DNA from: Octopus vulgaris | Taxonomy: Eukaryota | Reading direction: 5' to 3' | NCBI GenBank assembly: GCA_951406725.2 | Contig: OX597838.1 | Span: 27,032,001 to 27,096,000, forward strand | DNA length: 64,000 nucleotides | Shown here: piece after piece, positions 20,456-36,399 of the stretch | Layout: each line of letters starts with the position of its first letter | How positions within the stretch are numbered: position 1 is the stretch's first letter | Notes under the pieces: generated by a model | Database searches by the model: none | Seen by the model: only the letters and a program-made list of their open reading frames with translations | What the model was told of the DNA's origin: nothing | Program-made: the position numbers and the translations under genes

Positions 20456-20528
20456 GGTTTCATGGTGTAGTGGTTATCACGTCTGCTTCACACGCAGAAG
20501 GCCGCGAGTTCGAGCCTCGCCGAAACCT
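20456..20528 (+). tRNA. tRNA-Val(CAC), intronic, possibly a retrocopy
   Basis: Cloverleaf: acceptor GGTTTCA/CGAAACC (one A:C mismatch), D arm GTG..CAC, anticodon arm TCTGC-TTCACAC-GCAGA, T arm GCGAG-TTCGAGC-CTCGC. T6 run at 20534-20539. Confidence 0.85.
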
Positions 20529-20621
20529 GGGAATTTTTTCCGTCCAACCCGTGCTAGCGCGGAAAACGAACGTTAAACGATGATGATGATGATGACATAT
20601 GCATATAATAAATAAAATGCA

Positions 20622-21519: not shown

Positions 21520-21572
21520 TCCTGGGCAGATTATATGGGATGTTGCTATTGAACTGGCAGACCAGAAGACAG
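21520..21572 (+). CDS. DYNC2LI1: DYNC2LI1 exon 2 (PGQIIWDVAIELADQKT)
   Basis: Polypyrimidine tract plus ctacag acceptor, ag|gtaagt donor, 53 nt. IWDVAIE resembles the N-terminal LWEIAK motif of D2LIC. Confidence 0.85.
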
Positions 21573-22376: not shown

Positions 22377-22432
22377 TTGGTCCCCAGGTGGAGAAAGAGT
22401 CAACCATTCTCATCACCGGAGCAAAAGAATGT
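22377..22432 (+). CDS. DYNC2LI1: DYNC2LI1 exon 3 (VGPQVEKESTILITGAKEC)
   Basis: ttccag acceptor, gtaagt donor, 56 nt. Supplies the first half of the P-loop GAKECGKS. Confidence 0.88.
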
Positions 22433-22621: not shown

Positions 22622-22994
22622 ATACACGCACAGATGCATTGGGCCTCATGGAAGCAATGACCAAGACCTGCGGCAATAGGCTACGTTTGAGTGGATGACC
22701 CATCAAGCCAAGAGAGATCGTAGTCGTAACAGACACTGGTGTCACACAACTGGCACCTGTGCCGGTGGCTTGTAAAAGCACCCACTACACTCTCGGAGTG
22801 GTTGGTGTTAGGAAGAGCATCCAACCGCAGAAACCATGCTGAATCAGACTGAGGTCTGATGCAGCAGCCTCAGCTTGCCGGCCCTGAGTTTTATATATAC
22901 AACATATATACAAATATATATCAATAAGCATATATGTATGTGTGTGTGTACATATGTTATATATATGTATATTATGTGTGTACATATAATATAT

Positions 22995-23114
22995 GTACAC
23001 GGCCATATCACGTTGAAAGCACCGGTGCTCGTCCGATCACCGAAGTTAAGCAACATCGAGCCAAGTTAGTACTTAGATGGGTGACCGCTTGGGAAACCTA
23101 GGTGCTGTAAGCAT
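22995..23114 (+). rRNA. 5S rRNA copy (probable pseudogene or retrocopy)
   Basis: ACGGCCATATCACGTTGAAAGCACCGG..CGTCCGATCACCGAAGTTAAGCAAC..GTTAGTACTTAGATGGGTGACCGCTTGGGAAACCTAGGTGCTGTAAGCAT. The first 4 nt do not pair with the 3' end, and there is no T4+ terminator directly after it. Confidence 0.9.
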
Positions 23115-24543
23115 ACATTTAAAATAGCGGTGCCCCAGCATGGCCACAGCTCGTGAGCTGAAACTAGATCAAATAAAAAAAATTTTTTTTAAATAAAATA
23201 AAATATGTGTGTGTGTTTATTTATATACACACACACACATATATATTTCAGTTTTGGATTTGGTTTGCAAGATTCTTTATATGAAATTTTAGGAAAATAA
23301 AAATAAGAAATAAGTGGAAATTTTACCAGTGAGTGTGTTACATTATAGGGAACAAAAAGAAAATGACTCTCCTCAGACACAACAGCATATATATATATAT
23401 ATATATATATGATGGGCTTCTTTCAGTTTCTGTCTACCAAATCCACTCACAAGGATTTGGTTAGCCTGAGGCTAAAGTAGAAGACATTTACCCAAGGTGC
23501 CATGCAGTAGGACTGAACCTGGAACTAATACATTATATATGTATATATATATTTATATAATCTTTTGTATTTTGTATAAATGCAGACGTGTAAGTAATCT
23601 ATCTATTATTAAATATGATAATATAAATTACTTCCATGTCTTTGAGTTATGAAACAATCGGTTATGATATTAGGGTTTTTCTTATTGTTAAATAAAAGTT
23701 CATCAAAATATTTCTGTCGTTTATGACTTTATATTTATTTATGATAATAAGATGAGAAAATAAGAGAGGCAATTAATAAATTATTATTTATTAATTAAAA
23801 AACTGACAAACATCCCTTACAGCTGTTTCAATTTCAGACCGTCAGAAAATTAATTTATTAAATTAAAAATTATACAAAATAGGCGGCGAGCTGGCAGAAA
23901 TGTTAGCATGCCGGGTGAAATGCGTAGCCATATTTCGTCTACCGCTACGTTCTGAGTTCAAATTCCGCCAAGGTTGGTTTTGCCTTTCATCCTTTCGGGG
24001 TCGATAAATTAAGTACCAGTTATACACGGGGTCGATATAATCGACTTAATCCGTTTGTTTGTCCTTGTTTGTAGTAAAGAAATAGGTATACAAAATAGGT
24101 GTTCAATTCCTGCTTGTTGAGTAAATGGCTGCAAAACCGTTAACTGATAAAATTTATACATAAAGAACATAGAATAAATAAATAAATATATATATATATG
24201 TATATTTATAAGCTTACAGCTTATAGGCAATCACTGTGAATTGACTAAAGAAAATAGTCTAATATTGGGGCATATAAACCTCGATGAATAAAAGTGGGTT
24301 TTCTATACACATGGGACTGAAACCTACACCTCTATGTTTTTGCGACATGTGAGAACCCCTGGACTGTCATAAATTTGCCATCCCTCAAACCATCCCTCTA
24401 CTTTTCAAATATAAAAACACAAACAACTCAACCAACACCCTCCCCATTTACTCCACTCTGATATACATTATTGTTCCATTTGATAGCATAAATATCTCAT
24501 GGAATGCTGGAGCATCTGTTGATTGCCTCCATTCCAGTGTATT

Positions 24544-36152: not shown

Positions 36153-36399
36153 CATCATCATCATCATCATCGTTTAACGTCCGTTTTCCGCGCTAGCACG
36201 GGTTGGACGGTTTCGACCGGGGTCTGGGGAGCTAGGGACTGCCCCAAGCTCCAGTCTAGTCTGGCAGTGTTTCTACAGCTGGATGCCCTTCCTAACGCCA
36301 ACCACTCCGCGAGTGTAGTGGGTGTTTTTTACGTGCCACCTGCACAGGTGCCAGAGGGGTCTGGCATCGGCCACGTTCGGATGGTGCTTTTTATGTGGG

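What the first reader, a model, noticed from the sequence alone, without database searches (positions are those of the whole stretch)
22995..23182. 5S rRNA copy fused to a SINE-type 3' tail: candidate 5S-derived (SINE3-like) chimera
Seen: a nearly full 5S copy with a non-pairing 5' end and no T4 terminator is followed 12 nt later by GCGGTGCCCCAGCATGGCCACAGCTCGTGAGCTGAAACTAG and an A-rich end. This is a variant of the family A SINE tail (GCGGTGCTCCAGCATGGCCGCAGTCAAATGACTGAAAC). It is the second Pol III RNA + tail fusion within 2.6 kb and uses a different tail family. Inference: either a 5S-headed SINE family or a general Pol III RNA capture process in this genome.
Basis: partly seen in the sequence, partly recalled or inferred. 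Interest (0 to 1): 0.7.

Follow-up and report, generated by a model that had tools for sequence, protein, structure and literature searches.

The report
5S RNA captured on retrotransposon tail
This is a nearly whole 5S ribosomal RNA copy joined to only the last ~55 bases of a jumping gene (a LINE); it is one of about 80 such fusions with differing joints in this genome rather than an amplified SINE family, likely made one at a time when the LINE's reverse transcriptase jumps onto U-ended small RNAs, the step long proposed to start new SINEs.

Summary
The fusion is real but is not a SINE3 family. 5S nt 5-119 (98% identical to clustered genes) is followed by a 13-nt linker and the terminal two-hairpin tail of a CR1-like LINE. 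The genome holds 79 5S + tail fusions (control 1). In the strict set, 30 of 30 linkers differ, several tail subfamilies occur and no mutation marks a master copy. Of 47 dispersed 5S copies, 40 abut a retroelement in the same sense (background 1%); U6 and pre-tRNAs, including the tRNA-Val 2.5 kb upstream, do the same. The striking feature is a fixed boundary: 44 of 70 tail copies stop within 7 nt of the first hairpin's base (2 expected), and the RNAs are joined there. Likely mechanism: reverse transcriptase runs off a short tail template and jumps end-to-end onto U-ended Pol III precursors. Closest known: platypus U6-L2 chimeras. This scan noted the same class elsewhere in this genome. Expression and the empty site were not resolved.

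The parts
22999..23113 (+). 5S rRNA-derived segment, nt 5-119; two differences (T33G, T69A) from a clustered gene copy; 3' end complete
   Evidence: Rfam 99.6 bits; comparison with L002
23114..23121 (+). Linker: likely remnant of a pre-5S 3' trailer ending in three T, plus one extra A
   Evidence: Only 3 nt match a sampled cluster trailer; resembles the ...ACATTT trailer class of 18 other dispersed copies; source gene not found
23122..23165 (+). 3'-terminal tail of a CR1-like LINE: AAAT, hairpin 1 (about 23125-23146, one G>A at 23126), hairpin 2 (23147-23160), then AAACT
   Evidence: 23127-23165 is identical to the LINE end in L070; RT domain upstream in L070; fold
23166..23182 (+). A-rich terminal repeat of the tail
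   Evidence: Same type of end in other tail copies
23183..23190 (+). T8 run, the first possible Pol III terminator after the 5S start
22991..22996 (+). Candidate 6-nt target duplication, left copy (right copy 23203-23208); in AT microsatellite, not distinguishable from chance
20456..20528 (+). tRNA-Val(CAC) copy, head of a second chimera
20529..20595 (+). Pre-tRNA-type trailer with T run (20529-20539) joined to a short GAT-repeat retroposon tail (from 20540)
   Evidence: The same tail ends a longer element at 36210 (-); similar tRNA + tail fusions genome-wide

Best explanation
This is a one-off chimeric retrocopy: a 5S rRNA copy joined in the same sense to only the terminal ~55-nt two-hairpin tail of a CR1-like LINE, likely made in a single insertion when the LINE reverse transcriptase jumped from that tail onto the U-rich 3' end of a 5S precursor. 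Shown: the anatomy, the LINE origin of the tail, dozens of fusions with different linkers, the fixed tail boundary, and the same joint for U6 and tRNA. Inferred steps: (1) ORF2p binds the tail hairpins and primes at an AT-rich site. (2) Synthesis very often ends 1-3 nt past the base of hairpin 1, either because the bound RNA is a short protected fragment or because the enzyme stalls there. (3) At that end it either finishes (tail-only insertions, about 60% of tail copies) or adds a few untemplated bases and jumps end-to-end to a nuclear Pol III precursor (pre-5S with trailer, U6, pre-tRNA). (4) It copies that RNA toward its 5' end, stopping 4 nt short here. The product keeps a near-intact internal promoter and has no terminator before the tail, so it has the build of a proto-SINE3, but no copy shows signs of having founded a family.
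For: 30 of 30 linkers are distinct; 79 fusions with a looser pattern, control 1. 40 of 47 dispersed 5S copies on C1-C10 have a retroelement motif starting within 20 nt in the same sense (22 CR1-type tail, 2 GAT tail, 14 SINE, 2 longer GAT-type element), against 32 of 3000 random window positions and 1 of 47 in the opposite sense. RNA origin: 21 of 30 start at 5S nt 1-5; the cluster's upstream motif is in 29 of 29 cluster hits but 1 of 30 chimeras; 16 of 30 carry 5 nt or more of a cluster trailer. Single-block insertion: in L046 the flanks rejoin into one SINE, with AATG on both sides. Tail parent: ORF with RVT_1, E=1.2e-23. Boundary: 44 of 70 tail copies end 0-7 nt upstream of GCGG, 2.1 expected from the rate further upstream; only 4 of 65 are cut deep inside hairpin 1 (read by eye). 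In the SINE-type fusions most joints fall at the SINE's natural 5' end. A non-LTR RT makes end-to-end jumps and adds untemplated nucleotides, most strongly at high dATP, in vitro (PMC8594491, passages).
Against: For this copy no reliable target duplication and no empty site were found, and its linker matches a sampled gene trailer over only 3 nt. Untemplated bases are not proven, because the trailer library is incomplete: 'extra' bases appear in 25 of 28 but may belong to unsampled source genes. DNA cannot separate template jumping from RNA ligation before copying. A few junctions recur at distant loci: 9 same-junction pairs among 37 5S-SINE fusions, some U6 junctions and near-identical ones. 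Only 1 of 47 empty-site tests gave a clear result in non-microsatellite flanks. The CR1 clade label rests on recalled motifs, not on a tree.
Confidence: 0.72

Rival explanations
1. RNA ligation first: 5S precursor and a short LINE-tail fragment are joined as RNA (RtcB-like), and the chimeric RNA is then retrotransposed. The copies are still independent one-offs.
For: Shown for human U6/L1 (PMC6789731, abstract and outline). A fixed tail boundary would fit an endonucleolytic cut. It predicts the same sense orientation and single-block insertion seen here.
Against: RtcB needs a 2',3'-cyclic phosphate on the upstream RNA and a 5'-OH on the downstream one (section heading). Pre-5S and pre-tRNA trailers are expected to end in U-OH, and SINE 5' ends to carry a triphosphate (established knowledge), yet all are joined.
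Confidence: 0.13
2. Two serial insertions: a tailless 5S retrocopy came first, and a tail-only LINE fragment later inserted into its T-rich trailer.
For: Tail-only insertions are common (44 of 70) and favour AT-rich sites. No target duplication encloses this copy convincingly.
Against: 40 of 47 in one orientation against 1 of 47 in the other, background about 1%. None of the cluster genes listed, which have the same T-rich trailers, carries a tail. L046 sits as one block inside a SINE.
Confidence: 0.07
3. A young 5S-headed SINE (SINE3-like) family, amplified from one or a few master copies by the CR1-like LINE.
For: It has the right architecture: near-intact internal promoter region, LINE tail, terminator only after the tail. 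At least 79 copies of this general build exist, and a few junctions recur.
Against: 30 of 30 linkers are distinct. Hairpin 2 comes in 12 variants among 27 scored. The commonest 5S differences occur in only 8 of 44 dispersed copies and are CpG-type or shared with cluster genes. Same-junction pairs share fewer derived changes (0.33) than different-junction pairs (0.72).
Confidence: 0.05

Closest known systems
U6-L2 and U6-Mon-1 chimeras of platypus; U6-L2/RTEX/AnolisSINE2 of anole; one U6-CR1 in turkey (Doucet et al. 2015, PMC4476161; passages)
   Same: Pol III RNA joined in sense to a short 3' piece of a stringent LINE or to its SINE; 1-9 bp target duplications; ascribed to template switching and proposed as the route by which SINEs gain LINE tails.
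   Different: That survey used snRNAs in vertebrates ('5S r' and 'invertebrate' occur 0 times in its text). Here the heads are 5S with trailer, U6 and pre-tRNA, mostly near full length, and the LINE part has a fixed boundary that most head-less copies share.
Human 5S/L1 and U6/L1 chimeras (Law and Burns 2025, PMC11838501, abstract and passages; Moldovan et al. 2019, PMC6789731, abstract and outline)
   Same: Each chimera is a separate event that does not self-propagate; 5S is among the captured RNAs.
   Different: Human 5S/L1 chimeras are mostly antisense and 3'-truncated (twin priming), with variable L1 length. Here 5S is sense, 3'-complete and joined to a constant minimal tail.
SINE3 (5S-derived SINEs; Kapitonov and Jurka 2003, not read, seen only as cited in PMC4494074 and PMC3531059)
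   Same: 5S head with internal promoter and a LINE-derived 3' tail (CR1-like partner recalled).
   Different: No common origin, no shared junction or diagnostic changes, no body; fewer than 100 copies found of any one structure.
R2 reverse transcriptase end-to-end template jumping (Upton et al. 2021, PMC8594491, passages; Bibillo and Eickbush 2004, seen only as a reference)
   Same: Serial end-to-end copying of separate RNAs with untemplated additions: the biochemistry that the junctions here would need.
   Different: In vitro, R2 clade; not shown for this LINE.

Membership tests
SINE3 / SINE family (SINEBase definition, PMC3531059) | At least 60% identity to 5S rRNA over 60 nt or more, under 1 kb, interspersed | tested here: met
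SINE3 / SINE family (SINEBase definition, PMC3531059) | [quoted passage not shown] | tested here: not met
   30 of 30 linkers distinct; no diagnostic change
SINE3 / SINE family (SINEBase definition, PMC3531059) | At least 100 copies with the same modules | tested here: inconclusive
   79 by exact pattern across several tail families, a lower bound
SINE3 / SINE family (SINEBase definition, PMC3531059) | Pol III transcription of genomic copies through the tail | tested here: inconclusive
   Only assembled contigs were available; none of those listed bridged the junction
Small-RNA/LINE chimeric retrocopies (template-switch type) | Small RNA 5' of a LINE or SINE 3' part, same orientation | tested here: met
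   40 of 47 sense, 1 of 47 antisense
Small-RNA/LINE chimeric retrocopies (template-switch type) | Partner LINE with the same 3' end exists and far outnumbers the chimeras (criterion in PMC4494074) | tested here: met
   1900 exact tails, 456 continuing exactly into the LINE, against 30 strict 5S chimeras
Small-RNA/LINE chimeric retrocopies (template-switch type) | Each junction independent | tested here: met
   (47 of 47 distinct)
Small-RNA/LINE chimeric retrocopies (template-switch type) | One insertion footprint (target duplication or empty site) around both parts | tested here: inconclusive
   Clear for L046; not resolved for the window copy
CR1-clade LINE (parent of the tail) | Reverse transcriptase ORF ending shortly before a stem-loop 3' tail with short terminal repeats | tested here: met
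CR1-clade LINE (parent of the tail) | RT phylogeny places it in CR1 rather than L2 or a sister clade | not tested
   No reference set on hand; the label is recalled from ORF2 motifs; the Atlas search gave only unnamed clusters

The most novel reading that the evidence does not exclude
The last ~55 nt of this LINE exist as a discrete, RT-bound short RNA that acts as a mobile primer cassette. It inserts alone more often than the LINE does and grafts itself onto any U-ended Pol III precursor, continually producing ready-made proto-SINEs (intact 5S promoter, no terminator, RT-recognition tail). The genome would then hold hundreds of dated snapshots of the first step of SINE birth, and would let one ask why almost none takes off.
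Probability: 0.33. Interest if true: 0.72.

Novelty: new variant of a known kind. Interest (0 to 1): 0.47.

Why it matters
How a Pol III RNA head acquires a LINE's 3' recognition tail is the accepted but rarely observed first step of SINE birth. Here that product occurs dozens of times for 5S alone, always at the same point of the tail. This makes the mechanism testable (short tail RNA or RT stall; jump or ligation) and explains why SINE tails begin where they do. The copies also preserve unprocessed 5S 3' ends and an older 5S variant. The single locus is probably inert, and chimeras of this general class are known in vertebrates.

Tried and rejected
Public runs laid on the locus (Logan contigs only, 5 of 24 listed runs used) were swamped by other repeat copies. 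They gave no empty site and no listed contig across the junction, so neither age nor expression was resolved. They do show 5S and tail-like sequence in runs labelled as four organisms. The target-duplication search gave only microsatellite-level matches for most of 30 copies and a 6-mer for this one. The first empty-site BLAST found nothing; in the second, most hits were microsatellite artefacts. A search for the source gene of the ...ACATTT trailer found 18 dispersed copies and no gene. The host gene was not identified: 0 Pfam hits in 97 of 192 candidate frames scanned. ARAGORN found a tRNA in only 1 of 11 chimera loci; Rfam found more. In one search the L146 row had wrong coordinates and was ignored. 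Supplements of PMC4824008 and PMC4758252 gave no tail motif, but file 1 of each could not be searched, so a published match to bivalve CR1 tails may be missed. Buzdin 2003 was not held. Seven paper searches found no report of 5S/U6/tRNA-LINE tail chimeras in cephalopods; Repbase, Dfam and subscription journals were not searchable.

Full report
Setting. The window is G000:C25:27032001-27096000 of a 2.8-Gb assembly. It is probably an octopus: an earlier scan note says so and the size fits from recall; I did not test this. The element lies among SINEs and AT microsatellites, downstream of two candidate exons on the same strand, so it is probably intronic; the gene was not identified.

Observation. 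Rfam places a 5S copy at 22995-23113 (99.6 bits) and a tRNA at 20456-20528 (tRNA-Val CAC). Genes in a tandem 5S cluster on C4 (about 35.2-35.3 Mb) begin GCTTAC. The window copy matches from nt 5 and differs from one such gene at two sites only, T33G and T69A. A 13-nt linker follows, then the tail at 23127, an A-rich end and T8 at 23183.

What the tail is. The exact 39-nt tail occurs 1900 times (control 0), and 456 of these continue exactly 13 nt into a common upstream sequence. That upstream sequence is the end of an ORF with reverse-transcriptase motifs (RVT_1 E=1.2e-23). The tail is therefore the 3' end of a LINE, related to but distinct from the tail of the window's family-A SINE. I call it CR1-like from recalled motifs; no tree was built. 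It folds into two hairpins.

A fixed boundary. Among the first 70 exact tail copies on C1, 44 lose LINE homology within 0-7 nt upstream of GCGG and 26 extend further. The truncation rate further upstream predicts 2.1. The sequences upstream of the 44 are unrelated apart from one local duplicate and two short tRNA-like matches, so no hidden SINE body explains them. To check that this is a peak and not a slope, I searched with hairpin 2 alone. Of 65 distinct loci in the first 100 rows, read by eye, 4 are cut deep inside hairpin 1 and 7 within its first 1-4 nt; the rest reach or pass the boundary (the pattern required an A upstream, a mild bias). Of the 44 tail-only copies, 4 have an Rfam-detected Pol III RNA directly upstream: U6 in L061, and tRNAs with trailers in L068, L094 and L121. 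Two more look tRNA-like by eye.

Family or repeated accident. The pattern 5S end + up to 30 nt + tail start gives 30 loci (control 0), and all 30 linkers differ. Twelve start at 5S nt 1, nine at nt 2-5, and nine are more truncated. A looser pattern gives 79 (control 1); a few of these are near-identical apart from CpG-type changes. These patterns force short tails, so I also took an unselected set: the 47 distinct dispersed 5S ends on C1-C10 among the first 100 of 155 rows (55 rows on later contigs were not listed). Forty have a retroelement motif starting within 20 nt in the same sense: 22 CR1-type tails (motif at 8-17 nt), 2 GAT-repeat tails, 14 SINE heads or near-heads, and 2 longer GAT-type elements. 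Seven were unclassified and were not compared with the LINE body. The same motifs hit 32 of 3000 random window positions and 1 of 47 in the opposite sense. No 5S difference is shared by more than 8 of 44 dispersed copies, and those are CpG-type or present in cluster genes. 5S is also fused to the family-A SINE 67 times. Among 37 of these examined (30 loci from that search plus 7 picked for one trailer type), 9 same-junction pairs share fewer derived changes (mean 0.33) than 656 different-junction pairs (0.72), with one local duplicate pair left out. By the SINEBase criterion (PMC3531059, passages) and Kojima's test (PMC4494074, passages), these are chimeric retrocopies, not a family.

RNA origin and single insertion. 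The cluster's upstream motif lies before 29 of 29 cluster hits (overlapping loci counted) but before 1 of 30 chimeras. Sixteen of 30 linkers begin with 5 nt or more of a cluster gene's 3' trailer, pointing to unprocessed precursors. This copy matches only 3 nt of a sampled trailer but resembles a trailer class seen in 18 other dispersed copies whose source gene was not found. In L046 the flanks rejoin into one SINE (85% over 74 nt) with AATG on both sides, so 5S and tail entered together there. For the window copy only a 6-nt match in microsatellite was found, and public contigs did not resolve the site.

Generality. U6 ends are joined to the same tails at the same boundary: about 45 places in the first 100 of 132 rows, by eye, including two tandem-duplicated groups, with a pattern that favours tails. 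About 15 of 59 rows of a tRNA-arm + GAT-tail pattern look like tRNA + trailer + tail by eye; Rfam confirmed tRNA in 3 of 6 tested. The window's tRNA-Val fusion is one of them. The label RTE for the GAT tail is recalled and was not tested.

Mechanism. Inferred: the RT, bound to the tail hairpins, primes at the target and commonly ends just past hairpin 1. It then either completes a tail-only insertion or jumps to the 3' end of another RNA. In SINE-type fusions most joints lie at the SINE's natural 5' end, which suggests that jumps happen at template ends and hence that the tail boundary may be a real RNA end. R2 RT performs such jumps and adds untemplated nucleotides, most at high dATP (PMC8594491, passages). 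An added A could pair with a terminal U, which would explain the preference for Pol III precursors; the same paper notes that long overhangs inhibit jumping. RNA ligation, as for human U6/L1 (PMC6789731, abstract), cannot be excluded from DNA but fits U-OH ends and SINE 5' ends poorly.

Comparison and novelty. Platypus U6-L2 chimeras with short L2 parts and 1-9 bp duplications are the closest published case (PMC4476161). Human 5S/L1 chimeras are mostly antisense and truncated (PMC11838501). Mollusc SINE papers discuss CR1 tails and template switching as a proposal (PMC4758252, PMC4824008, passages). Seven searches found no cephalopod report. The scan's own earlier notes describe the same class for U6, pre-tRNA, 5.8S and one older 5S copy in this genome; they are not independent evidence, and my reading was recorded before that call. 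Verdict: real, not a SINE3 family, a new variant of known small-RNA/LINE chimeras; interest 0.47.

Noticed in passing
window 20456-20595 and 22999-23182: Two Pol III RNA chimeras with different tails lie 2.4 kb apart. This is rare if chimeras number only in the low thousands, but may occur somewhere by chance; no cause was found.
   Followed up: partly
L216-L245, L201-L213: Many 5S-SINE fusions carry a 5S variant (G at nt 61 and 119, trailer TCACACATTT) not seen in the sampled C4 cluster genes: possibly a fossil of a former or unassembled 5S gene array.
   Followed up: partly
G000:C4:35.21-35.32 Mb (L002, L014-L016, L023-L030): Tandem 5S rDNA cluster with genes in both orientations and several trailer types.
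   Followed up: partly
L040, L041, L048, L052, L053, L009 (junctions): Several linkers contain A runs between the 5S trailer and the tail; these could record oligoadenylated 5S decay intermediates.
   Followed up: no
L012, L046, L047, L048, L049, L055, L060 (5S 5' junction): Full-length copies often have an extra G directly before 5S nt 1 (ATG or TGG context); this may be untemplated addition or target microhomology.
   Followed up: no
L068 1557-1669 (-): A long tRNA copy (113 nt, likely Leu with intron) plus trailer is joined to the same tail, pointing to capture of an unspliced nuclear precursor.
   Followed up: partly
L147, L134, L008, L070: Fold-back structures: inverted copies of a SINE end or of the LINE end flank some insertions.
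   Followed up: no
G000:C14:8199766-8199983; G000:C1:132.47-132.53 Mb: U6 + tail units repeated in tandem (3 copies, 86-bp period) or by segmental duplication (4 copies).
   Followed up: no
window 21520-21572 and 22377-22432 (+): Two AG...GT-bounded candidate exons whose reading frames join in phase; gene not identified.
   Followed up: partly
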